IMG/VR virus record: IMGVR_UViG_3300044806_000291 | Coordinates: 1 to 43,680 of that record | Direction: 5' to 3' (one strand) | DNA from: a virus | Taxonomy: Duplodnaviria; Caudoviricetes | DNA length: 43,680 bases | Shown here: piece by piece, positions 2,624 to 40,098 of the stretch | Layout of the letters: every line of letters starts with the position of its first letter | How positions within the stretch are numbered: the first letter of the stretch is position 1 | Position numbers and translations under genes: made by a program | Notes under the pieces: generated by a model | Databases searched by the model: none | Told to the model about the DNA's origin: nothing | The model's input: the letters and a program-made list of their open reading frames with translations, nothing else

Positions 2624-2766
2624 GCCGATGGCGTTCGGGTCTGTGGTCGGTGGTGGCGTTGTGCGTCGCCCTGGCCGATTCGCGTTCGGGATGGCTTGCT
2701 GTTTGCGCATGCCTCATTGGTGCTGCTATGATTAGCGTGTTGCTGATTACTGAGAGGGGCGAATGA
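2620..2766 (+). CDS. Small membrane protein
   Basis: Two hydrophobic segments; ATGA overlaps at both ends. Confidence 0.5.
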   Translation: MSRWRSGLWSVVALCVALADSRSGWLAVCACLIGAAMISVLLITERGE

Positions 2767-3386
2767 TGGGACCTGAGTTCAAGGCGTGGCCGAAGACGCC
2801 GCGCCTGTTCCGTGACATGGTGATCACGGAGAAGATCGACGGCACGAACGCCGCCGTTATCATCGAGCCGTCCGACATGGGCGCCGACGATGACGGATGG
2901 TGCGCGAACACCGTCGGGCCGGACGGCGAGTGGTACAAGGTCGGCGCGCAGTCACGCAACCGCGTGATCGAGCCGGGGCGGGACAACGCCGGATTCGCGA
3001 CATGGGTTGATGCGAACGCCGAATCCCTGATCGCCGATCTCGGTGCTGGCTACCACTACGGGGAGTGGTGGGGTTCCGGGATCCAGCGGGGGTACGGCCT
3101 GACGGGTGGCGAGAAGCGCTTCTCGCTGTTCAACGTCAATCGGTACGCACGCCCCGAGGGGACGTCGTTCGTCACCCCCGATGTCGACATCGTGCCGATC
3201 CTCGCTCGGTTCACGTTCTCGACGGGAGTCGTTCAGGAAGTGCTCCTCGATCTCGGCAAGACGGGCTCGCGCGCCGCACCTGGGTTCATGCGTCCCGAGG
3301 GTGTCGTCGTCTTCCACGCCGCGGCCGGCATCGTGTTCAAGGCGACGATCGACGGCGACGAAGAGCCGAAAGGCGTGCGGCGATGA
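2763..3386 (+). CDS. RNA ligase (Rnl2-like nucleotidyltransferase)
   Basis: Motif I TEKIDGTNA, QSRNR, YGEWWG, FSLFN, EGVVV and FK. Confidence 0.85.
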   Translation: MMGPEFKAWPKTPRLFRDMVITEKIDGTNAAVIIEPSDMGADDDGWCANTVGPDGEWYKVGAQSRNRVIEPGRDNAGFATWVDANAESLIADLGAGYHYGEWWGSGIQRGYGLTGGEKRFSLFNVNRYARPEGTSFVTPDVDIVPILARFTFSTGVVQEVLLDLGKTGSRAAPGFMRPEGVVVFHAAAGIVFKATIDGDEEPKGVRR

Positions 3387-3622: not shown

Positions 3623-4985
3623 GCGGATCGAACTCAGGGGAGCGGCCAGAGAGATCCTCTCTGACCGCTCCCCTGAATGCCTTGTCGCCGGCCCAGCCGG
3701 CACGGGGAAGAGCTTCGCTTCGCTCTACAAGATCCACTTGATGTGCCTGCTCAACGGAGCGTGCAGGAAGGACTGCGAGAAAGAGCACGAGCATGCGTTG
3801 ACGGGGATGCGCGCGCTCATCGTGCGGAAGACAGCGAAGAGTCTGACGTCGACTGGTCTGGTGACGTTCAGGGAACAGGTTGCCGCCGACGCCATCGCGC
3901 AAGGAATTCTGAAGTGGTACGGCGGATCAAGCGAGAAGCCCGCGCAGTATCAGTACACCAACGGCAGCGTGATCGTTGTCGGTGGCCTCGATAACCCTGA
4001 CAAGATCATGTCTGCGGAATATGACATCATCTTTATTCAAGAGGCAACTGACTGCACGGTAGAAGACTGGGAGAAATGCAACTCCCGCTTGCGTAACGGC
4101 AGGGTTTCATTCCAGCAACTATTGGCAGACTGCAATCCACAGCAACCCTCCCATCCGCTGAAAAAGCGATGCGATGAGGGCCTGACAAAGATGCTGCTCT
4201 CGCGTCACGAGGACAATCCCCGGCTGTTCGACGCTGGCGGGGAGGTCACTGCCTACGGCGAGGCGTACATTCGCCGGCTCGACAACCTCACTGGCGTACG
4301 GCGCGAGCGCTTGCGCTACGGACGCTGGGCCGCGGCTGAGGGCATGATCTACGAGACGTTCAGGCCCGACATCCACCTGTCCGATCGCAAGGTCCTGCCG
4401 ATGGACTGGCCGCGCATATGGGGTGTCGACTTCGGGTACACGAACCCGTTCGTGTGGCAGATGTGGGCGATCGATCCCGACGGACGGCTGTATCTTGAGA
4501 AGGAAATCTACCGGACACAGAGGCTTGTCGAGGATCACGCAAAGGATATCCTCGCTGTCGTGACGCGCGCGTCCGATGGCAAGTGGAAGTATCCGAAACC
4601 GATGGCGATCGTGTGCGATCACGACGCAGAGGACAGGGCGACGCTCGAACGGCACATCGGGATCGGCACCACAGCAGCCAGCAAGAACGTGAGCGAGGGC
4701 ATTCAGGCTGTACAGACACGCTTAAAGGTGGCCACTGACGGACTGCCGCGCCTGTTCCTCTGTCGTGACGCGCTGGTGTCACGCGATGAGGAGCTGCGCC
4801 AGGCCGGCAAGCCGACATCGACGATCGAGGAGATCGAGGGTTACGTGTGGGAGCCGTCGCCTGATGGCAAGCCGTTGAAAGATCGACCGTTGAAACTCAA
4901 CGACCATGGCGTCGACAGTGCACGCTATGTGTGCGCACATCAGGACTTCGCCCCCAGGGCGCGCGTCAGATTCATCGACAACTGA
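3585..4985 (+). CDS. terL: Terminase large subunit (PBSX-like)
   Basis: Walker A GPAGTGKS, Walker B IFIQEA, DCNP coupling motif, nuclease GVDFGYTNP and C-terminal DHGVDSARY. Confidence 0.95.
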   Translation: MTYRPHMIEPIRKRIELRGAAREILSDRSPECLVAGPAGTGKSFASLYKIHLMCLLNGACRKDCEKEHEHALTGMRALIVRKTAKSLTSTGLVTFREQVAADAIAQGILKWYGGSSEKPAQYQYTNGSVIVVGGLDNPDKIMSAEYDIIFIQEATDCTVEDWEKCNSRLRNGRVSFQQLLADCNPQQPSHPLKKRCDEGLTKMLLSRHEDNPRLFDAGGEVTAYGEAYIRRLDNLTGVRRERLRYGRWAAAEGMIYETFRPDIHLSDRKVLPMDWPRIWGVDFGYTNPFVWQMWAIDPDGRLYLEKEIYRTQRLVEDHAKDILAVVTRASDGKWKYPKPMAIVCDHDAEDRATLERHIGIGTTAASKNVSEGIQAVQTRLKVATDGLPRLFLCRDALVSRDEELRQAGKPTSTIEEIEGYVWEPSPDGKPLKDRPLKLNDHGVDSARYVCAHQDFAPRARVRFIDN

Positions 4986-6635: not shown

Positions 6636-6968
6636 ATGGTCTCTATCGGCATCGACGCGCCACGCAATCGGACGCGAGTGCTCACCCTCGGGGAGCGCAT
6701 CGCGCAGCGTGACGCGTCGATTGCCGTTCGGATCGGGGTAATCGCCCTCGCGGGGTTGCGAGGGAAGCGATTCCTTCGGGCGGCCAGGACCGCCGGCGGA
6801 CGAGCGATCGTCATGGTGTTCGCTGTCCTTGGCGCCTTCGGCGCTCGTCACGGGTTGGTGCTCGGAGCGCTCACGGCGTTCACGGTGGCGGCGTGGCGCG
6901 TCGATGCGGTTGCCGGCCTCGTGACGATGGGCGTGGGGATGTTCTTCCTCGAACTGAGGCGCAAGTAG
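6636..6968 (+). CDS. Membrane protein
   Basis: Hydrophobic C-terminal segments. Confidence 0.65.
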   Translation: MVSIGIDAPRNRTRVLTLGERIAQRDASIAVRIGVIALAGLRGKRFLRAARTAGGRAIVMVFAVLGAFGARHGLVLGALTAFTVAAWRVDAVAGLVTMGVGMFFLELRRK

Positions 6969-7010
6969 TTGTTGCGTGCCTGATTCGTGCGTGCTAGACT
7001 TCTTGCATGA
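6939..7010 (+). repeat. 72-bp direct repeat, copy 1 (gene end + promoter TTGCGT-17-TAGACT + ATG)
   Basis: 67/72 identical to 7344-7415. Confidence 0.9.
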
Positions 7011-7343: not shown

Positions 7344-7415
7344 ATGTTCTTCCTGGAGTTGAGGCGCAAGTAGTTGTTGCGCGCTTGATTCGTGCGTGCT
7401 AGACTTCTTGCATGA
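7344..7415 (+). repeat. 72-bp direct repeat, copy 2 (promoter TTGCGC-17-TAGACT)
   Basis: 67/72 identical to 6939-7010. Confidence 0.9.
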
Positions 7416-25463: not shown

Positions 25464-26255
25464 ATGTCGTACGCGCCGGAGTCCATCTTGCAGGCCAGGC
25501 GCCTGATTCAGGGTATCGTGCCCTCATTGTCCAATGCCGAGTTGGGCATTGTCGGTGACGATGCGCACGCGAACTCAGGTACCGGATACCACATCGGTGA
25601 AGACGCCTTAAAGGCGGCAGCGTACTCAGTCGTCGAGTCTTCGCGCGACAGGAACGGCCTGACCAACGCGGCCAGCGCGCTCGACGTCGGGTGGTTCACG
25701 GTACCTGGCCAGAAGCGCACGCTGCGGGACATGTCCAAGTGGATCGTCGCCGAGTGTGAGGCGAACGCCCTTGACACGCGCGATATCCGGGAGATCATCT
25801 ACTCGCCGGACGGCCGGACAGTCAAGCGCTGGGATCGGCTGAAGGCCCGCTCGTCCGGCGACGACTCCCACCTGTCCCACACACACTTCTCGTTCTTCCG
25901 TGACAGCGAGTCCCGAGACAAGACGTCGATCTTCCGACGATGGTTCGTCGAGATCGGCGCAATGGAGGATGGCATGGCACTGACGTTGGCCGACGGGGCA
26001 ACCGTGTGGAAGACCGACATCATCCCGAACCCCGCGTTCCGCGCTGACGCGAAGGACAACCCCGCGACGACAGCGTGCTTCGCGCTCGGCGACGTATGGC
26101 GCCGCGTCGGAGAGGCCGGTCAGAAGCTCGACGCCCTGAGTGCCAAGGTTGACGCCCTGGGCGACAGGGTTGACGCCCCTGCCGCGACCAAGGATGAAGT
26201 ACTGGCGGCGATCAGGGCCGAGATTCGTGCCATTGTGCGTGATGGAGTGGCGTAG
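25464..26255 (+). CDS. Endolysin (putative peptidase-type)
   Basis: GIVGD.AH...GYH, ASALD, IREIIY and SHLSHTHFSF His/Asp motifs; follows the tail genes. Confidence 0.7.
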   Translation: MSYAPESILQARRLIQGIVPSLSNAELGIVGDDAHANSGTGYHIGEDALKAAAYSVVESSRDRNGLTNAASALDVGWFTVPGQKRTLRDMSKWIVAECEANALDTRDIREIIYSPDGRTVKRWDRLKARSSGDDSHLSHTHFSFFRDSESRDKTSIFRRWFVEIGAMEDGMALTLADGATVWKTDIIPNPAFRADAKDNPATTACFALGDVWRRVGEAGQKLDALSAKVDALGDRVDAPAATKDEVLAAIRAEIRAIVRDGVA

Positions 26256-30897: not shown

Positions 30898-31596
30898 TCA
30901 GCTACGCGTGATGCGTGCCTGCCACTTCCATGAGGACGTGGTGACACCTGGCTGCTCACGCTCGACGCGCCGCACGGCCACGTCGAGATTGATGAACGCC
31001 TGATCGCCGGTGATCGCGATACCGGCGGCATTCGCAAGTTTGATCGCGTCCAGCAGGGCGAGACGCGAAGAGGCGACTGGGTTGCCGGTCACGTGGCCTT
31101 TCGGGGGCTTGGCGCTGCCGGACACGAACCACGAGCGCCGACCGTCGTCACCCTCGATCTGCGGGTCACGCTCGGCAGTCTGGCCGGAGATGACGAGGTT
31201 GAGAACGGGGTCGTTCGGCTTGCCCGTAGCCGGATCGACCGGAGACAGGCCGGGAGCACGCTTGCCGGTACTCGGATCGGTCACCCAATACTGCTTCAGC
31301 CGGGAGACCCTGTCAGGTGCCTGACTCGGGTGACAGGTCGACTGCACGTCCTTCGGCGCGGCGGTCACCTTGAGCCTGATCTCAGTGCCCGGGGCGTGCG
31401 CCAGGGTGAACAGGGACGGCAGGGACTCGATGTTCGGCCCGAAGAGGCTGGATTGCTTGGCGGGTTCCGGGGCGTATCCCTCGCTGAGCGACGAGGATTC
31501 CTGCCCGTAGGCACTGGCCGAGTTGTACTCGCGTGTTGCCGCCGGGGCGGGGGATGCGGACGCCGCTACCCACGGGTCGTTGACTGGCTGAGTCAT
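30898..31596 (-). CDS. Putative ssDNA-binding (OB-fold-like) protein
   Basis: QT.ERDP.IEGDDG.R..FV.G pattern like actinophage SSB-type proteins; near the exonuclease and helicase. Confidence 0.5.
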   Translation of the reverse strand: MTQPVNDPWVAASASPAPAATREYNSASAYGQESSSLSEGYAPEPAKQSSLFGPNIESLPSLFTLAHAPGTEIRLKVTAAPKDVQSTCHPSQAPDRVSRLKQYWVTDPSTGKRAPGLSPVDPATGKPNDPVLNLVISGQTAERDPQIEGDDGRRSWFVSGSAKPPKGHVTGNPVASSRLALLDAIKLANAAGIAITGDQAFINLDVAVRRVEREQPGVTTSSWKWQARITRS

Positions 31597-31658
31597 TCGT
31601 TTCGCTCGTTTCTGTCGCTTCGTCGAGACGTTGTTTCGTTCGTGCTGATTGTAGCAAG

Positions 31659-32172
31659 TGGTGCGGCGCGAGGGGTGAAACCCGACTCTACGGCCGTCGG
31701 CAGCCTGTCGCGTACACCGAGACACCCCTCGCGCCGTCCGTCTCTCCGGACTGTCACGGCCGCCGCTTCCGTCCTCGCCGCACTAGTTGCCAGCATCCCG
31801 CAAGGGGAACCATGCGACTACTCCCACCGATAGGGCGAAGTCACTGCGCGTGCTACGTGCGTGATGCCCTGTTTCCGTGCGTGCCCCCTCGGGGAATCGA
31901 ACCCCTCATCCGCCTAGGCCGGATTGCCGCAACCATACGGAGGCTCAAGAAGTGGACGCGCCGTTTCGACCTCCCGTGGATTCCACGGCGCGCCCACCTC
32001 ATCCCACCGAAGCGGGGGGTTGCCCGTCTTTCCAGGCTGTCACCGATCGCATGCTAGCGTGCCGGATTCCCGGTCGAACTCTCCGGTGCCACGGGGGTTT
32101 GAAATCTCCTGCTTACCTGACGCGCGACTCAATCGCCTTCTCGTCAGGGGAGTTGATTTCTCGCCCCTCAAC
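31659..32172 (-). ncRNA. Putative large structured RNA or RNA cluster
   Basis: No credible ORF, own promoter, many stems, repeated covarying motif, tRNA-like domain, 3' ACCA. Confidence 0.6.
31882..31944 (-). tRNA. Degenerate tRNA-like element, CUA at anticodon position
   Basis: Acceptor GCCTCC/GGGGGC, anticodon stem ATCCG/CGGAT with loop GCCTAGG, T arm GGGG-TTCGATT-CCCC; D arm and variable loop reduced. Confidence 0.45.
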
Positions 32173-32180
32173 TGACGACT

Positions 32181-32209
32181 ACGTTACTCGCTCCCTGATT
32201 CCGTGTCAA
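32181..32209 (-). promoter_or_regulatory. Sigma-70-type promoter driving the non-coding region
   Basis: TTGACA-17-TAACGT. Confidence 0.75.
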
Positions 32210-32471
32210 GCCTGCGCCGCATTGGCGCTGTCGCCCACGCCAGGATAACGAACCCGACAGCGAACACCACTGTCGTGAGCACGTAGAGGACCCCGCCCAT
32301 CTGTGCCATGTACAAGAACGCATCCCCCCCGAACAGCTTGACTGTCCCATCAGGGGATCGCTTGGCCACACCACCGAAAGCGGCCACACCACCTAGGCAA
32401 GCCGAGATAGCGCACCCGACGAACAACCACGCCACTACGAAACGAATCATGATCAGATCCCCTCTCGCCAC
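32184..32471 (-). CDS. Membrane protein
   Basis: Two hydrophobic segments; start may be slightly downstream. Confidence 0.6.
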   Translation of the reverse strand: MARGDLIMIRFVVAWLFVGCAISACLGGVAAFGGVAKRSPDGTVKLFGGDAFLYMAQMGGVLYVLTTVVFAVGFVILAWATAPMRRRLDTESGSE

Positions 32472-34417
32472 TCAGCCAGACCGAACGTGGCCACGCCGCG
32501 CGCTTCGCTGCGCGCCTCCACCACGGCCTTAGCCAGGCGCGCCCACTGGCCGGCCAGCGTCAGATCCACGCGGGAGAGGAAGGGTGCGGCGCCGTCGCTC
32601 GGCATGCGGAGCAGGATCGCCACCTCCTGATCCACGCCGAACTGCTTCGGACCGAGGACGTACTCCGTCTTGTCCTCGCTCAGCATCCATTCCGCCGTGG
32701 CGTACACGTACTGCTGAATCCACGCCTCAAGCCACGTGTAGAACGGCTTGCGCTTGGTGTTGTGTGTAGGGATCATGCGCTCCCCAGCAAGATAGGTGCT
32801 TGACGGCGAGTCGACGGAGATGCACGCGGTCGGCACGTCCGGCCCCGACTCGATTGACACGATGACACGTCGGCTGGAAACCGTCAGACTCTTCGCGCTT
32901 GCGGCGGCCTGCTCAGCTTTGCGGGGGAGTTGGAACGGATTTATTCCGATCGGGGTGAATGAGACGTGATACGAAATTACGTCCTTTCCGAAACCACGCG
33001 TCGACACCTCAGCGACATGTACCCGCTGCCCAAGCGACGTGATCAGCTCAGCGGCTTGAAGCGCCAGCGCCTTATCGACGCTATAGAATACCGCTGTCCG
33101 TCGGGGCTTATTCCACGTTCCGTCGGTATCCATCAGCCCCTGAAGTAGCGCGAGACGTTGCGCTGGGGACGCGCGAAGATAGGAATCAGGGACGCTCTTG
33201 TGGCCGCGCATCCCCGCCAATCGGAGCGCGCGGGACAGTCCGATCACCGTGTGATGAATCGTCGTCGGCCGACGCTTGTCGCGCGTCGCCTTACCGAGCG
33301 GATACCCCGACGCGCGGAGGTGATCAAAGATGTCGACTTGCCCCGTGATCACCCCACTTGCGCGCGACCCGTCCCCAAGCCATACGCCAAACAGATACGG
33401 GTCGATCGGCAGGTCGGCATCGCTAGCCTGAAGCGCGCCGGCGTTAGGCACTACGTGTTGAGCCTGACCGGAATACCTGTTGCGCAGCGTGGCAATCACT
33501 TCACTGACGGGTCGGGGGGTCGGAGGTTGTGCGGCACAGTTGGCGAATCGAGAGACCCCCGTCCACCAAATGTGCTCCGCGTCGCACACGATCTCTGAAC
33601 CGTCGTCGAATCGGACAACGTATGTGCCGATCCGCTTGACCTCCGACTTCCCCGTGACGCGCGTTGGTGCGCCGTCCTTGTCGTAGACGACGTCACCAAC
33701 ACTGACTGCGCCCATAGTGGTCCACCCGTCGGGCGTAGCCAGGGGAGTGTCAAGCGCAAGCCCCTTCAGGTCAGCCATGTACAGCTTGCCCGTGCGCCTA
33801 CTCATCAGCACGTCGTCGAACCTGCCGGCCGCGTCCAGCTCCTCGTTACGAACCACGCGTTCTTGCAGGCCTGGGACGCGCTCCAGGTCGTGCTTGTCGA
33901 GTAGCGCTTCGAGCGCCTCGATATCGTGATTGATCTTGCTCGTGCCCAGCAGTACGCCCGTCTTGGCGCGCGCTTCCCAGACGTCGTGACGATTGGTGCC
34001 CTTGGCGCCAGCGGCGTTCGCACCTACCGCCGTCTTCGCGTGATCGGCGAAGTCTTCGAGCATCCCGATAAGTTCGACACCCGCCGGACTCTGGCGGAGC
34101 TCTTCGAGGTCCACGCCCGCGAGTCTGGCCGACAGCGTCCGGAAGACGACCTTCTCGTAGAGGTCCTCGCGCAACGCGAGCCCCATCATCACGCGCTCGA
34201 TCTGCCAGACGGCCAACTCGCGCGCGTCGACGATGGCGCCGGCGAGGTTGGTGGCCGACATCTTCCCGTACGGGACGTAGTCCCCACCCGCTTTCGTGCC
34301 GGATTCCCCAGGGAGTAGCGGCATGTGATATCTGCCGCGGTACCGCTCCCCGAACTGTTTGATCTCCTTCTCACCCGAGGTGACGTCGCCGGTTACGGGA
34401 TCGAACAGGCTGCTCAT
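32453..34417 (-). CDS. PD-(D/E)xK exonuclease (Cas4/RecB-like) containing an intein
   Basis: GTNRH, ERVV, AGRFD, MADLK|T and QQYVYA after intein removal; ATG 34417 has an SD. Confidence 0.8.
   Translation of the reverse strand: MSSLFDPVTGDVTSGEKEIKQFGERYRGRYHMPLLPGESGTKAGGDYVPYGKMSATNLAGAIVDARELAVWQIERVMMGLALREDLYEKVVFRTLSARLAGVDLEELRQSPAGVELIGMLEDFADHAKTAVGANAAGAKGTNRHDVWEARAKTGVLLGTSKINHDIEALEALLDKHDLERVPGLQERVVRNEELDAAGRFDDVLMSRRTGKLYMADLKGLALDTPLATPDGWTTMGAVSVGDVVYDKDGAPTRVTGKSEVKRIGTYVVRFDDGSEIVCDAEHIWWTGVSRFANCAAQPPTPRPVSEVIATLRNRYSGQAQHVVPNAGALQASDADLPIDPYLFGVWLGDGSRASGVITGQVDIFDHLRASGYPLGKATRDKRRPTTIHHTVIGLSRALRLAGMRGHKSVPDSYLRASPAQRLALLQGLMDTDGTWNKPRRTAVFYSVDKALALQAAELITSLGQRVHVAEVSTRGFGKDVISYHVSFTPIGINPFQLPRKAEQAAASAKSLTVSSRRVIVSIESGPDVPTACISVDSPSSTYLAGERMIPTHNTKRKPFYTWLEAWIQQYVYATAEWMLSEDKTEYVLGPKQFGVDQEVAILLRMPSDGAAPFLSRVDLTLAGQWARLAKAVVEARSEARGVATFGLAEWREGI
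32759..33763 (-). mobile_element. Class 3 intein with LAGLIDADG homing endonuclease (335 aa)
   Basis: Starts GLALDTP; block B CDAEHIW, block F VPTACISV, block G IPTHN/T; HEN motifs GVWLGDG and LQGLMDTDG. Confidence 0.9.
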
Positions 34418-34456
34418 ATCGCCCCTTCGTTGTGCAGAGTTGAATACGAGCATAGC

Positions 34457-34923: not shown

Positions 34924-34975
34924 GTCCCCTGCTCTTTCGTGATGTTCTCGATGATGTCGATGATCCTGTGCTCGA

Positions 34976-35062
34976 TGGGGGTCGGGGCGGGATTCGAACC
35001 CGCATACCCTGCTCATAGTTGTGTCCGGCACTCAGTGCTTGTCCAGTTAAGCTACCCGACCC
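34976..35062 (-). tRNA. tRNA-like gene (His-like G-1:C73, encoded CCA) with aberrant 27-nt anticodon arm
   Basis: GGTCGGG/CCCGACC acceptor, TA-GCTT/AAGC D arm, GCGGG-TTCGAAT-CCCGC T arm, CCA end. Confidence 0.7.
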
Positions 35063-35075
35063 ATGTTCCTGTTGA

Positions 35076-36797
35076 TTATTGCACGCGTGATCGCACGCTG
35101 GCAACTAGTGGATCGATTCGCGCCGTCGCCTGACACTGATCGATCAGTTCGCTCAGCACGCCCGCGCTCATGAGTTCGTCGCGCTGGATTCCGTACCTGG
35201 CCGCAAGACTCCATTGCTTCTCGCTCGGCTGACGTGCGCGCCACGCGCCCTTGCGCGTATTGAACGCGTCGCCCGCCAACTCCTCGCCGTGCGACAGCGC
35301 CTCATCGAGCGTCAGCCCGACGTGCTCCGTGCCGCGCGCCCACGCTTCACGCACCCCGCACTGCACGATGTCGAACCTGCCCTGGCTGGCGGCCAGGGAC
35401 TCGACGACGAACACGAACGCGTCAGCCTTGCTGGCCACGCTCGCCTTCACGTAGTACGTTCCGCCGGAGGTCTGACCCCACACCTTCTCGCGCCCGAGAG
35501 GATCGAATGCCTTCGTCGCCACAGGGCCGGCGTACTCGTCCGACTCGAACTCGAACGACGCACCCGCGCGCTTCTCCGCCAACTCCTCCTCGATCGCCAG
35601 GGCGAACTCATCGAGATCGGCCAGACTGGCGCCCGGGTTGAGTTCGTAGGCGTCCGACAGTGGACGCTCGGGGGACAGATCGATGAACAGGCTCAGGTCG
35701 TTGTCTGCGCTGGCGCCGGTCACGTCGATCAGCAGGGCCTTGCGCGTCAGGGTGCGCGTGTCGATCGGACGCCCCTGCTCGTCCTCGGGAGGGCGCAGTG
35801 CGCGGCCGGCCATCTGCGTATAGAGCGTCCTGCTCTTCGTGTTCCTGCCCATCAGGATCACGTCGACTGACGGATCGTCGTAGCCGACTGTGAGCGCCAT
35901 CGCGTTGTGCACGCAGAGGATGCGCCCCTCGCGATGATCGGCCAGCACCCGCGCGCGCTCCCGCTTGTCCTGAGCGCCGTACACCACGCCCGACGGGATG
36001 CCCATGTCGTCGAACACCTGAGCGGCATGCTCGGCGGTGGCGACCAACGGCCAGAAGGCCAAGCCCTTCCGCCCCTCGCTCAGCCGTTCGTATTCCTTCG
36101 CGATCGTCTCGATGGCGAACGAGCGTTCCAACTCCTCGCCCAAGCTGGCCGCATCCCAGTCCCCGCCACGCGTGGCGACGTTCGACATGTCGAAATCGGG
36201 GACGACGATGCGCTCGCCGCGGACGTCCATCAGGAACCCGTTCCTGATGCCGAACATGATGTCCTTGCTGTAGCTGCACTCCTCCCAGATCGAGCTGAGT
36301 TTCTGCTTGTCGGAACGTGACAGTGTGGCTGTCAGTCCGAGGACTTTGACTGGCGAGAATTCATCGAACGCATTGAAGTGCTCTAGAATCTTGCCGTATG
36401 AATTCGTGCGCACTGAAAAGTGACATTCGTCAATGATGATCAGTCCGACATTGCGTAACTGATTCAAGCGTCGCTGATTCGCCAGCGTCTGGCGTGAGCC
36501 GATGACGATCTCAGCCGTGGGCTGATTGCGCGCACCCATCATCACGCCGACGCGTCGCCCAGTCCTGCGCATGTGCTTGGCCATCTGATCGATCAGCTCG
36601 ACAGTGTGCGCGATCGACAGAACGCGCTTCCCTGGATTCGCTTCAAGCCATTCATCAACGAGGACGGATGCGATGACAGATTTCCCGAGACCGGTAGCGC
36701 ACACGACAGGAACGCGCGTGGCTCCTTCATTCCAGCGCCTGAACGTGTCATTGATCGCCCCTCGCTGATAATCGCGAGGGACGGGCAGATTCCTCAC
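35076..36797 (-). CDS. SF2 DEAH-type helicase
   Basis: RDYQ, ATGLGKS, IIDECH, GLTAT, TVGYD, QMAGRALR. Confidence 0.92.
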   Translation of the reverse strand: MRNLPVPRDYQRGAINDTFRRWNEGATRVPVVCATGLGKSVIASVLVDEWLEANPGKRVLSIAHTVELIDQMAKHMRRTGRRVGVMMGARNQPTAEIVIGSRQTLANQRRLNQLRNVGLIIIDECHFSVRTNSYGKILEHFNAFDEFSPVKVLGLTATLSRSDKQKLSSIWEECSYSKDIMFGIRNGFLMDVRGERIVVPDFDMSNVATRGGDWDAASLGEELERSFAIETIAKEYERLSEGRKGLAFWPLVATAEHAAQVFDDMGIPSGVVYGAQDKRERARVLADHREGRILCVHNAMALTVGYDDPSVDVILMGRNTKSRTLYTQMAGRALRPPEDEQGRPIDTRTLTRKALLIDVTGASADNDLSLFIDLSPERPLSDAYELNPGASLADLDEFALAIEEELAEKRAGASFEFESDEYAGPVATKAFDPLGREKVWGQTSGGTYYVKASVASKADAFVFVVESLAASQGRFDIVQCGVREAWARGTEHVGLTLDEALSHGEELAGDAFNTRKGAWRARQPSEKQWSLAARYGIQRDELMSAGVLSELIDQCQATARIDPLVASVRSRVQ

Positions 36798-37617: not shown

Positions 37618-37773
37618 TCAGTCTCTGCGCCCCTTTCTGCTGCTGTCGTTGGTGCTCTTCTTGACGTCGGACTGCGTGACGACGCGCGTCACGCCGTGTC
37701 GATCGCTGGCGAGCTTCGAGCCACTCACCTTCGCGCAGTCCGAGGTCTGTACGTGGTCTGGGAAGTCGATCAT
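37618..37773 (-). CDS. Small hypothetical protein
   Basis: ATGA overlap with the repeat-protein stop. Confidence 0.45.
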   Translation of the reverse strand: MIDFPDHVQTSDCAKVSGSKLASDRHGVTRVVTQSDVKKSTNDSSRKGRRD

Positions 37774-38507
37774 TTGCCTGCTTCTCTCGTGTGACTGGCG
37801 GGGCGGATGTCGAACAGTTCCCCCGCCAGGGGCAGGGCGTCGTCCCACGCGCCGCGCCATTCGTTCCGTGTGGCCAGGGTGATCAGGTCGGTGAACGTGG
37901 CGCCGGCAGCGAGTGCGTCGAGGACATCTCGCGCCTCTTCCTCGCGAGACGCGAGGAAGTTCGCGACGATCCACGAGACGAGAGGATGCGCGTCGCGCGC
38001 CTTGTCGTACTCCGCCCACACCGCGTCGAGCACCTTGTCGCGCTCCGCCCACACCGCGTCGAGCGCCTTGTCGTACTCCGCCCACACCGCGTCGAGCGCC
38101 TTGTCGTACTCCGCCCGCGCCGCGTCGCGCACCTTGTCGTACTCCACCCACACCGCGTCGAGCACCTTGTCGCGCTCCGCCCACACCGCGCCGCGCACCT
38201 TGACGTACTCCACCCACACCGCGTCGAGCGCCTTGTCGTACTCCGCCCACGCCGCGCCGCGCACCTTGGCGTACTCCGCCCGCACCGCGTCGAGCGCCTT
38301 GTCGCACTCCGCCAGCGCCGCGTCGCGCACCTTGGCGTACTCCGCCCGCACCGCGTCGAGCGCCTTGTCGCACTCCGCCAGCGCCGCGTCGCGCACCTTG
38401 GCGTACTCCGCCAGCGCCGCGTCGCGCACCTTGTCGTACTCCGCCAAGAACGACGCGAGTGCGGTGCGCTCATTCTCGCTGAGCGGAAGAGTGATGATCG
38501 TTTTCAT
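37770..38507 (-). CDS. 11-residue tandem repeat protein
   Basis: 14 copies of an AEYDKALDAVW-like unit; SD and own promoter. Confidence 0.8.
   Translation of the reverse strand: MKTIITLPLSENERTALASFLAEYDKVRDAALAEYAKVRDAALAECDKALDAVRAEYAKVRDAALAECDKALDAVRAEYAKVRGAAWAEYDKALDAVWVEYVKVRGAVWAERDKVLDAVWVEYDKVRDAARAEYDKALDAVWAEYDKALDAVWAERDKVLDAVWAEYDKARDAHPLVSWIVANFLASREEEARDVLDALAAGATFTDLITLATRNEWRGAWDDALPLAGELFDIRPASHTREAGK
37983..38444 (-). repeat. 33-bp tandem repeat array (14 units)
   Basis: Visible periodicity in both DNA and protein. Confidence 0.9.
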
Positions 38508-39639: not shown

Positions 39640-40098
39640 TCAGTCGTGCGAGTAGTAGTCGACGGTGATACCGGACGCGCGGACGATCACCTCAGCGTGA
39701 TCGCCGAACGCTTCCAGCAGCACGTACTCGAACGCGCCACCATCGATCGCTTCGGACAGTGCCTGAACCCGACGGAAGCGCTCCCCGGCCCTGCCGAGAG
39801 ACGGGTGATCGGAGTAGATGTGGATCTCGTAGTCGTACAGTTTGTCGACGTCGTCGGGTTCAGGATCGGCGGTGGTCAGGAACCATGGGGTCTGCACACC
39901 GAACGTGCACGGCTCCCCGTCGCTGTAGTACGGGGTGTACTGCGTCCAGCCGAACGCCTTTATCGTCGGGTCGTCGAGGACGGCGCGGATGAGGGGTTCG
40001 AGGTCGGACAACGGACGCTGCGCGGTGCGCTTGTCGCCCCTGGTGATGTCGCCCTTGACCTCGATGCCGAGGAAGTTGGTGTGCTGCTTCTCGCTCAC
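39640..40098 (-). CDS. Hypothetical protein (WTQYTPYY.DGEPC.F motif)
   Basis: GTGA overlap with the upstream gene; ends FGDHAEV...YYSHD. Confidence 0.7.
   Translation of the reverse strand: MSEKQHTNFLGIEVKGDITRGDKRTAQRPLSDLEPLIRAVLDDPTIKAFGWTQYTPYYSDGEPCTFGVQTPWFLTTADPEPDDVDKLYDYEIHIYSDHPSLGRAGERFRRVQALSEAIDGGAFEYVLLEAFGDHAEVIVRASGITVDYYSHD

What the first reader, a model, noticed from the sequence alone, without database searches (positions are those of the whole stretch)
31659..32172. Promoter-driven ~510-nt structured non-coding RNA region, candidate novel phage ncRNA system
Seen on the - strand after TTGACA-17-TAACGT, with no credible ORF, in order: a multi-stem domain (GAAATC/GATTTC, CCTGACG/CGTCAGG); a CCGG stem with GTTCGA; GTGACAG hairpin 1; a C(UUCG)G hairpin; a 13-bp stem (31952-31997); the tRNA-like domain; further hairpins; GTGACAG hairpin 2; and a perfect 14-bp stem (31664-31677/31723-31736) enclosing an internal hairpin and ending in ACCA. 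The next promoter (TGCTACAAT) follows at once. Established: phages encode large structured RNAs near or containing tRNAs (e.g. GOLLD, ROOL); I cannot assign this one to a family. Inference: one large RNA, or a polycistron cut by RNase P/Z into small RNAs acting as decoys, antiterminators or anti-defence RNAs.
Basis: partly seen in the sequence, partly recalled or inferred. Interest (0 to 1): 0.8.

Follow-up and report, generated by a model that had tools for sequence, protein, structure and literature searches.

The report
Mix-and-match phage small-RNA cassette
This soil/freshwater-type phage carries, behind a promoter-like site, a non-coding cassette of interchangeable folded-RNA modules that differs from relative to relative and is likely cut into small RNAs at tRNA-shaped spacers; one module, present twice, is a small motif found in about 1,500 viral sequences across many bacterial phyla that matches no Rfam family and whose job is untested.

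Summary
In a complete 43.7-kb phage (host likely Micromonosporaceae), 31659-32174 (-) is a hypervariable cassette: 13 relatives carry 215-1250 nt of different, mostly non-coding content at the same place, each behind a promoter-like site and each with a tRNA-shaped unit that keeps acceptor stem and T-arm while D and anticodon arms vary. Modules recur in different combinations, and a near-identical relative from an independent run lacks one module. Three modules show compensatory pairing. The GTGACAG hairpin ('D', two copies) is a widespread motif: about 1,500 IMG/VR stretches, stem paired in 112 of 119 unconstrained hits (shuffled 28), strand-polar, and 22 of 25 nearest downstream tRNAs start 4-12 nt after it. 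No Rfam family matches; C4, put, GOLLD, YrlA and theta ribozymes do not fit. Best reading: a polycistron cut by host RNase P at tRNA-shaped spacers into small RNAs, D forming 3' ends, probably acting as decoys (function about 0.3). No expression data were found.

The parts
32181..32209 (-). sigma-70-type promoter-like site (TTGACA-17-TAACGT), overlapping the stop of the upstream small gene
   Evidence: equivalent site at the head of 15 of 15 cassettes scored, -35 TTGACA/TTGACG in 10
32101..32173 (-). Module A/B: promoter-proximal multi-stem unit; core B (32112-32148) = 7-bp stem, GAGA(A/C)G bulge, 4-bp hairpin, 3' TAAG bulge, closed by a variable outer stem
   Evidence: core in 4 of 14 cassettes and in an unrelated 51-kb phage right after the same promoter type; 5 sequences, 90.9% of cells paired, 5 of 11 pairs with changes on both sides, 0-1 of 500 shuffles
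32021..32087 (-). Module D copy 1: AC-NNN...NNN-GU stem (P1) enclosing two small hairpins, then GACA and a 5-bp hairpin with GAAAGA loop
   Evidence: 23.7 bits, E 5e-5 with model R1; absent (31991-32095) from a near-identical relative; 5 changes in its core in another relative's low-depth contig
32003..32017 (-). C(UUCG)G hairpin
   Evidence: sequence; lost together with D1 in the relative
31949..32000 (-). Module E: 13-16 bp stem of variable sequence displaying a conserved loop word ATCCACGGGA
   Evidence: 5 of 14 cassettes; stems differ in sequence but form in all five, 5 of 12 consensus pairs with double changes; z -4.0; exact extended word found in 4 IMG/VR stretches, 3 of them these relatives, 1 a coding chance hit
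31882..31944 (-). 63-nt tRNA-shaped unit: acceptor 6 of 7 pairs, TTCGATT T-loop on a 4-bp stem, truncated D arm, 5-bp stem with G-C-CUA-G-G loop (31913-31919), 1-nt variable loop, no encoded CCA; predicted RNase P processing signal, not a decoding tRNA
   Evidence: not called by ARAGORN; best Rfam matches mascRNA-menRNA E 0.51 and tRNA-Sec E 3.5, far below cut-off; relatives keep acceptor and T-arm but vary elsewhere; position 8 changed in a relative's contig
31780..31881 (-). variable 5' body of the second predicted small RNA (several weak hairpins)
   Evidence: fold not better than shuffles; no homologous block in relatives
31736..31779 (-). Module D copy 2, extended subfamily: short pseudoknot (upstream GC with loop GC) plus P1, GACA and GAGAGA-loop hairpin
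   Evidence: 32 IMG/VR stretches hold the extended word; 24 aligned, pseudoknot pair col 9-22 CG:16 GC:7 UA:1; 62 bits with R1, built partly from it
31659..31736 (-). terminal 13-14 bp helix with inner hairpins ending C-ACCA; predicted minihelix/4.5S-like RNase P substrate
   Evidence: z -3.3; in L003 the same slot after D is a tRNA-Phe-like unit; G(C/T)ACCA near the cassette end in 5 of 14
31648..31656 (-). extended -10-like site of the downstream gene
   Evidence: similar site in 6 of 15 cassettes
30898..31596 (-). downstream conserved gene (232 aa, starts MTQ), synteny anchor; weak PHROG 1911 match, function unknown
32453..34453 (-). upstream exonuclease gene (PHROG 466) with an intein/LAGLIDADG insertion absent from L001 and L003; synteny anchor
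34979..35061 (-). second tRNA-shaped unit behind its own promoter-like site, called tRNA-Arg but with a 21-nt expanded loop in place of a normal anticodon loop; same scaffold with a different 20-nt loop in L138

Best explanation
The region is a hypervariable cassette of interchangeable structured-RNA modules that is likely transcribed as one ~515-nt precursor and is predicted to be cut by host RNase P at its tRNA-shaped unit and terminal ACCA helix into small RNAs that probably act in trans as decoys for host RNA-binding or RNA-cleaving proteins. Shown: promoter-like site, non-coding status, modular mosaic across relatives, covariation of modules B, D and E, and D lying 4-12 nt before tRNAs. 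Inferred: transcription; cuts before 31944 and near 31735 with 3' trimming, giving RNA1 (~230 nt: B, D1, UUCG, E), a 63-nt tRNA-shaped RNA, RNA2 (~145 nt ending in D2) and RNA3 (~77 nt helix-ACCA); D as a conserved 3'-end module read by a host factor common to many phyla. Odds: modular cassette 0.85; RNase P punctuation 0.6; decoy/counter-defence role 0.3.
For: Synteny: the slot between exonuclease and MTQ gene holds a different cassette in each of 13 relatives; T-arm motif in 14 of 14 cassettes (regex partly fitted to the variants seen), B in 4, E in 5, D in 5 plus L145 further on; longest shared block with the window 79 nt. Natural loss: an independent lake-water contig joins 32096 to 31990 through 17 other letters, 1 difference in the A/B part. 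tRNA-shaped units keep acceptor 6-7 of 7 and T-stem 5 of 5 pairs in most rows, while length runs 70-105 nt and anticodon arms are expanded or unrelated; acceptor plus T-arm is what RNase P needs (PMC11143913, passages). D: all three free stem pairs form in 112 of 119 viral and 90 of 123 genome hits against 27.9+-4.1 and 22.0+-3.7 shuffled; upstream P1 in 50 of 111 and 40 of 88 against 14.6 and 12.5; G-U 21 versus A-C 1 in viral hits; 37 of 201 paired hits have a same-strand tRNA, 0 opposite, 0 of 40 unpaired hits have any; 22 of 25 nearest downstream tRNAs start 4-12 nt after D, upstream gaps scattered 43-183 nt. Similar mixed clusters of D, STnc100 or YrlA-like units and tRNA shapes occur in other phages.
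Against: No transcript evidence at all. The window's tRNA-shaped unit has only 6 acceptor and 4 T-stem pairs, no CCA, and does not fold better than shuffles; the terminal helix has no T-loop and one extra base before ACCA. No intrinsic terminator ends the cassette, so it may read through as a leader. D also sits alone in short spacers before protein genes (Shine-Dalgarno plus start within 50 nt in 22 of 111 viral and 25 of 88 genome hits, controls 12 and 3), which suits a cis role. P1 was found in under half of D hits. Close relatives carry 5 changes in the D1 core and one stem-breaking change in D2 (single contigs, depth 2.8 and 6.4). Nothing ties the cassette to defence: the phage's RNA ligase gene is absent from 5 of 5 relatives tested. 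Covariation for B rests on 5 related sequences, two out of register.
Confidence: 0.55

Rival explanations
1. D is a cis-acting element (processing, stability, pausing or put-like antitermination signal) and the cassette is mainly a regulatory leader for downstream early genes.
For: D occurs alone in short spacers before genes, e.g. before a head-tail adaptor gene in 5 of 57 downstream ORFs scanned; start-codon enrichment after D; module B sits right after the promoter in 5 of 5 cases; no terminator at the cassette end; cross-phylum spread suits a universal target such as RNA polymerase.
Against: Downstream genes are unrelated in function (19 or so families among 57 ORFs, most unknown); the downstream gene has its own -10-like site in 6 of 15 cassettes; two D copies 286 nt apart; D absent from 8 of 14 cassettes; no likeness to HK022 put regions.
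Confidence: 0.22
2. D is an undescribed small self-cleaving ribozyme that helps cut phage tRNA/ncRNA transcripts.
For: Compact (~45-nt minimal form), invariant unpaired words, covarying stems, a pseudoknot in one subfamily, multiple copies per locus, phage and tRNA context; theta ribozymes are a precedent for tRNA-linked phage ribozymes (PMC10879173, abstract).
Against: D lies 5' of tRNAs, where RNase P already cuts, not at their 3' ends as theta ribozymes do; architecture fits none of the classes I recall (hammerhead, HDV, twister, pistol, hatchet, hairpin; compared by eye); no Rfam ribozyme match.
Confidence: 0.1
3. The modules are scaffolds that display base-pairing (antisense) loops, like C4/CI or the Pas/STnc100 prophage sRNAs.
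For: Variable loops on constant scaffolds (21-nt loop at 34979-35061 versus 20-nt loop in L138); D found beside STnc100 copies in an enterobacterial-type phage locus; a 14-nt and a 17-nt reverse-complement match within the genome.
Against: Those matches are within background (17 nt or more in 10 of 60 control windows); no C4 match and no a1/b1-a2/b2 target layout; conserved words in E and D are in loops but no conserved target was found; host genome unknown, so host targets were not tested.
Confidence: 0.15
4. The whole 510 nt is a single large structured RNA of the GOLLD/ROOL kind.
For: One promoter, whole-region z -2.8, tRNA neighbourhood as for GOLLD/ROOL (PMC5737381, passage).
Against: No full-length homologue; mosaic content; module loss in a near-identical relative; no GOLLD or ROOL match.
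Confidence: 0.05
5. The tRNA-shaped unit is a working amber (CUA) suppressor or pyrrolysine tRNA and the rest is its operon.
For: CUA in the middle of a 7-nt loop; L135 has a unit ARAGORN calls tRNA-Pyl.
Against: 63 nt, truncated D arm, 1-nt variable loop, G and C at positions 32/33; loops in relatives read Gln, Thr, Phe, Arg, Ala or nothing; TAG ends 7 of 39 hand-picked ORFs and genes are intact under table 11.
Confidence: 0.03

Closest known systems
Phage tRNA operons with co-transcribed tRNA-like stable RNAs (T-even 'species' RNAs; recalled, title of Moen et al. 1978 seen in a reference list)
   Same: One phage promoter, tRNA or tRNA-shaped units and non-tRNA stable RNAs predicted to be released by host RNase P.
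   Different: Here almost no unit looks like a decoding tRNA, and the content is swapped between close relatives.
Lambdoid prophage sRNA clusters: Pas RNAs, STnc100 (RF02076) (bioRxiv 10.64898/2026.05.13.724894, passages)
   Same: Several small RNAs clustered near tRNAs in mosaic phage regions, some processed from longer transcripts; D itself lies next to STnc100 matches in L425/L429.
   Different: No sequence or model match to the window; actinobacterial-type host; base-pairing targets not found.
C4 antisense RNA of P1/P7 and CI RNA of P4 (RF01695)
   Same: Phage small RNA matured by RNase P from a longer transcript (PMC5320573, PMC11143913, passages).
   Different: No model match, D model finds nothing in the P1 c4 or P4 cI regions, no flanking target pair, no icd-ant or kil operon.
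GOLLD (RF02032) and ROOL (RF03087)
   Same: Large non-coding phage region near tRNAs.
   Different: Those are single conserved folds; this is a mosaic without a conserved full-length fold.
mascRNA/menRNA (RF01684) and gammaherpesvirus TMERs (recalled)
   Same: Shrunken tRNA shape used as a cleavage signal to free neighbouring RNA; best, non-significant Rfam match (E 0.51).
   Different: Eukaryotic systems; likeness is by convergence on the acceptor/T-arm shape.
Theta (HDV-like) ribozymes (PMC10879173, abstract) and HK022 put RNA (PMC9378689, passages)
   Same: Small phage RNA motifs tied to tRNA processing or to control of elongation.
   Different: Theta ribozymes abut tRNA 3' ends and have the HDV fold; put has another sequence and two directly joined stems. 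D lies 5' of tRNAs and ends in a hairpin.

Membership tests
Any Rfam 15 family | covariance-model score above the gathering cut-off | tested here: not met
   window: only tRNA at 34979-35061; region at E<=10: three weak matches; no match over D in 20+20+20 loci or over the 10 relatives' modules
GOLLD | match to RF02032 / conserved ~400-800-nt fold | tested here: not met
   0 matches at E<=10; no full-length homologue
ROOL | match to RF03087 | tested here: inconclusive
   0 matches, but the controls did not ring either; no match in cmscan; mosaic content argues against
C4/CI antisense RNA | match to RF01695 | tested here: not met
   P1 and P4 regions compared
C4/CI antisense RNA | complementary target sites flanking the RNA in the same operon | tested here: not met
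   no excess of complementary matches (76 versus 96+-17 in controls)
C4/CI antisense RNA | maturation by RNase P | not testable with these tools
   inferred from shape only
Functional tRNA (incl. tRNA-Pyl/amber suppressor), unit 31882-31944 | complete cloverleaf, 70+ nt, U33, paired D stem | tested here: not met
   63 nt, no ARAGORN or RF00005 call
RNase P substrate | acceptor stem stacked on T-stem with T-loop, about 12 bp | tested here: inconclusive
   window 6+4 pairs with two mismatches at the junction; relatives mostly 6-7 + 5
Bacterial Y RNA (YrlA) | match to RF02553; Ro/Rsr partner gene | tested here: not met
   only a 12.7-bit T-arm piece at 34971-35003; no Ro gene among 15 proteins scanned, the rest not scanned
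Theta/HDV-like ribozyme (motif D) | ribozyme directly 3' of a tRNA, HDV nested double pseudoknot | tested here: not met
   upstream tRNA gaps 43-183 nt, D lies 5' of tRNAs; fold differs (by eye)
Self-cleaving ribozyme, any class (motif D) | site-specific self-scission | not testable with these tools
   needs in vitro assay
HK022 put antiterminator | two joined stems with the put sequence, promoter-proximal | tested here: not met
   putL/putR regions read and searched with model R1, no match
Metabolite riboswitch (motif D) | consistent downstream gene function | tested here: not met
   57 downstream ORFs from 228 D hits give unrelated families or none

The most novel reading that the evidence does not exclude
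Phages keep RNA-only accessory islands: tRNA-punctuated arrays into which small structured RNA 'cartridges' are swapped like anti-defence genes, and motif D is a new cross-phylum class of functional RNA (a decoy for a universally conserved host protein, or a new small ribozyme) present in well over a thousand phage genomes.
Probability: 0.25. Interest if true: 0.9.

Novelty: new variant of a known kind. Interest (0 to 1): 0.7.

Why it matters
Phage accessory regions are studied almost only as protein genes. A defined slot where close relatives exchange folded RNA modules, with tRNA shapes as likely cutting marks, gives a way to find phage small RNAs systematically and suggests that many odd 'tRNA' calls in phages are spacers or scaffolds rather than decoding tRNAs. 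Motif D is small, strongly covarying, found with many bacterial phyla, and present unannotated in cultured phages (Rhodobacter phage RcCWillis, Erwinia tasmaniensis phage phiEt88), so its function is directly testable.

Tried and rejected
BLAST of the region against 50,697 phage records: only 23-28-nt pieces, E 2-7. D extended word against E. coli genomes: no match. C4/CI, put, GOLLD, ROOL, YrlA: see membership tests. Antisense targets in the phage genome: within background. Link to the phage's Rnl2-type RNA ligase: gene not found in 5 of 5 relatives, 2 of them over 90% complete. Amber recoding: TAG used as a stop in 7 of 39 ORFs; the coding-density measure was uninformative. Expression: no RNA holder listed; nothing laid from one metatranscriptome run and one doubtful RNA run; no evidence either way. 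One search used a wrong gap length and found nothing; repeated. The relaxed copy count had a faulty pattern and was not used. Literature: nine searches found no description of D or of this cassette; the six commonest D words occur in the text of two unrelated papers only (listing); two common D hairpin words are absent from the searchable supplements of Weinberg 2010 (one file cut). The alignment files of Fremin 2023 (8,495 IMG/VR candidates) and the supplement of Weinberg 2017 could not be searched, so D may be an unnamed candidate there. Earlier scan notes held nothing on this sequence. Resemblances of D to boxB, k-turn, T-loop, tmRNA pseudoknot or rRNA words were noted from recall only and are not claimed.

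Full report
Setting. The window is a complete 43,680-nt virus record with direct terminal repeats, 60-68% GC, with terminase, capsid, tail, primase-polymerase, helicase, exonuclease, methylase and RNA ligase genes. Named relatives of its lysis-region protein at 25464-26255 are almost all from Micromonospora and Actinoplanes, so the host is probably a member of the Micromonosporaceae (inference). The finding lies on the minus strand between a small gene after the exonuclease and a 232-aa gene that starts MTQ.

Observation. The 526-nt stretch folds better than 100 of 100 shuffles (z -2.8); the signal comes mainly from two long stems. Two copies of the GTGACAG hairpin are found where 0.06 is expected. 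Rfam gives no hit at cut-off in the region and only weak tRNA-shaped matches at 31883-31957. No reading frame is conserved.

Relatives show a mosaic, not one RNA. Searches with the two flanking proteins gave 3, 6 and 15 loci. After dropping duplicates (L129, L132, L139) and loci that end too early (L133, L137, L140, L143, L146, L148, L149), 13 relatives carry a mostly non-coding stretch of 215-1250 nt after the exonuclease or before the MTQ gene; L147 has genes there instead, with tRNA shapes further on. Some cassettes enclose small ORFs (L001, L145). All 15 cassettes scored begin with a promoter-like site. Content differs: the longest block shared with the window is 79 nt (L131); module B occurs in 4 of 14, E in 5 of 14, D in 5 of 14 plus L145 beyond the slice, and a T-arm motif in 14 of 14. 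A contig from an independent lake run matches 32096-32209 with one difference, then goes through 17 other letters to 31990, so it lacks D1 and the UUCG hairpin; it also lacks the 243-nt upstream gene (one contig, depth 2.8).

tRNA-shaped units. In relatives these keep 6-7 of 7 acceptor pairs and, in most rows, 5 of 5 T-stem pairs, but run from 70 to 105 nt with expanded or unrelated anticodon arms; ARAGORN calls them Gln, Thr, Phe, Pyl, Arg, Ala, unknown, or misses them. The window's unit is 63 nt with a truncated D arm, a CUA-centred loop lacking U33 and no encoded CCA. [quoted passage not shown] I therefore read these units as processing marks or scaffolds (inference).

Modules. B: five sequences, all promoter-proximal, 90.9% of cells paired, five pairs with double changes, 0-1 of 500 shuffles on four of five measures; few and related sequences, two with a shifted register. 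E: long stems of different sequence around one conserved loop word, so far only in this clade. D: a pattern that leaves both stem arms free matches about 1,500 IMG/VR stretches and about 620 GTDB stretches (estimates from partial scans; 120 and 121 returned). The free arms pair fully in 112 of 119 and 90 of 123 non-redundant hits (shuffled 27.9 and 22.0); a second stem, AC-NNN...NNN-GU around a 6-85-nt variable interior, is found in 50 of 111 and 40 of 88 (controls 14.6 and 12.5), preceded by a purine in 87 of 89. Wobbles are G-U on the tRNA-sense strand (21 versus 1 A-C in viral hits), which points to RNA. GTDB titles span Proteobacteria, Bacillota, Bacteroidota, cyanobacteria, Planctomycetota, Chloroflexota and others; about a quarter of those hits are unpaired and probably chance, and prophage status was not checked. 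Of 201 paired hits 37 have a same-strand tRNA within 300 nt and none an opposite one; 22 of 25 nearest downstream tRNAs start 4-12 nt after D. The window's second copy belongs to a subfamily of 32 stretches with an added short pseudoknot, one pair of which varies as CG 16, GC 7, UA 1 in 24 sequences (the P1 pairs were fixed by the pattern and carry no information). In other phages D sits in like clusters with STnc100, YrlA-like matches and tRNA shapes, or alone before a protein gene of varied function.

Mechanism. Most likely the promoter makes a ~515-nt precursor, possibly reading on into the MTQ gene, and RNase P cuts before the tRNA-shaped unit and before the terminal ACCA helix, which occupies the slot that a tRNA-Phe-like unit fills after D in L003. 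With 3' trimming (RNase Z or exonucleases; recalled pathway) this would free about four small RNAs, with D as a conserved 3'-end module. Their job is unknown to the data; I commit to decoys for host RNA-binding or RNA-cleaving proteins because the locus behaves like an accessory hotspot and D's spread needs a partner common to many phyla, but give this only 0.3. Cis-acting, ribozyme and antisense readings stay open.

Against. No RNA data were found. The window's own tRNA shape is a poor one. Two low-depth contigs of close relatives show five changes in the D1 core and a stem-breaking change in D2. D's link to start codons favours a cis role in part of the family.

Novelty. The general kind (phage tRNA regions with extra small RNAs; lambdoid sRNA clusters; RNase P-matured C4) is known. 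The module-swapping, tRNA-punctuated cassette and motifs B, D and E match no Rfam family and were not found in nine paper searches, but two large candidate catalogues could not be searched. Papers seen: PMC5320573, PMC9378689, PMC11143913, PMC5737381 and bioRxiv 10.64898/2026.05.13.724894 as passages; PMC2864571 and PMC10690425 as passages plus partial supplement searches; PMC10879173 as abstract. Verdict: real; new variant of a known kind with one apparently uncatalogued widespread motif; interest 0.7.

Noticed in passing
window 34979-35061 (-): The only 'tRNA' called (Arg) has a 21-nt loop on a 3-bp stem instead of an anticodon arm; L138/L139 carry the same scaffold with a different 20-nt loop, and L134, L135, L136, L142 and L147 have other expanded arms. 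Possibly a family of tRNA scaffolds displaying variable loops.
   Followed up: partly
window 32453-34453 (-): Exonuclease gene interrupted by an intein-like insertion with a LAGLIDADG domain (about residues 231-567), absent from L001 and L003.
   Followed up: partly
window 2763-3386 (+): Rnl2-type RNA ligase gene before the terminase, not found in five related phage records.
   Followed up: partly
window 31781-31794 versus 35097-35110; 31897-31913 versus about 39985-40001: Exact 14-nt reverse complement of a cassette hairpin over the -35 region of the second tRNA-shaped unit, and a 17-nt one of the T-arm inside an ORF; within background, not conserved-tested. The same hairpin region is 77% complementary to the downstream -10 region (31647-31668).
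   Followed up: partly
window 37770-38507 (-): ORF built of 11-residue (33-nt) tandem repeats, matching PHROG 19481.
   Followed up: no
window about 6940-7010 and 7350-7415 (+): Near-duplicate ~60-nt stretch with a promoter-like end before two small genes.
   Followed up: no
L135 ~4058-4075, L136 ~3860-3905, L138 ~3730-3790: A further module not in the window: long stem with an inner GGAGAC-loop hairpin followed by GAAGG, in 3 of 14 cassettes.
   Followed up: no
L135 3713-3783, L141 3912-3991, L145 3906-3978: A tRNA-shaped subfamily sharing a TGTCAGCC word in the D-arm region.
   Followed up: no
L161, L183, L243, L329, L348: Minimal D alone in a ~70-nt spacer right before a head-tail adaptor gene in alphaproteobacterial-type prophages.
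   Followed up: partly
L398 100-1200; L429 100-1425: Dense clusters of tRNAs, tRNA shapes, YrlA-like or STnc100 matches and D in unrelated phages.
   Followed up: partly
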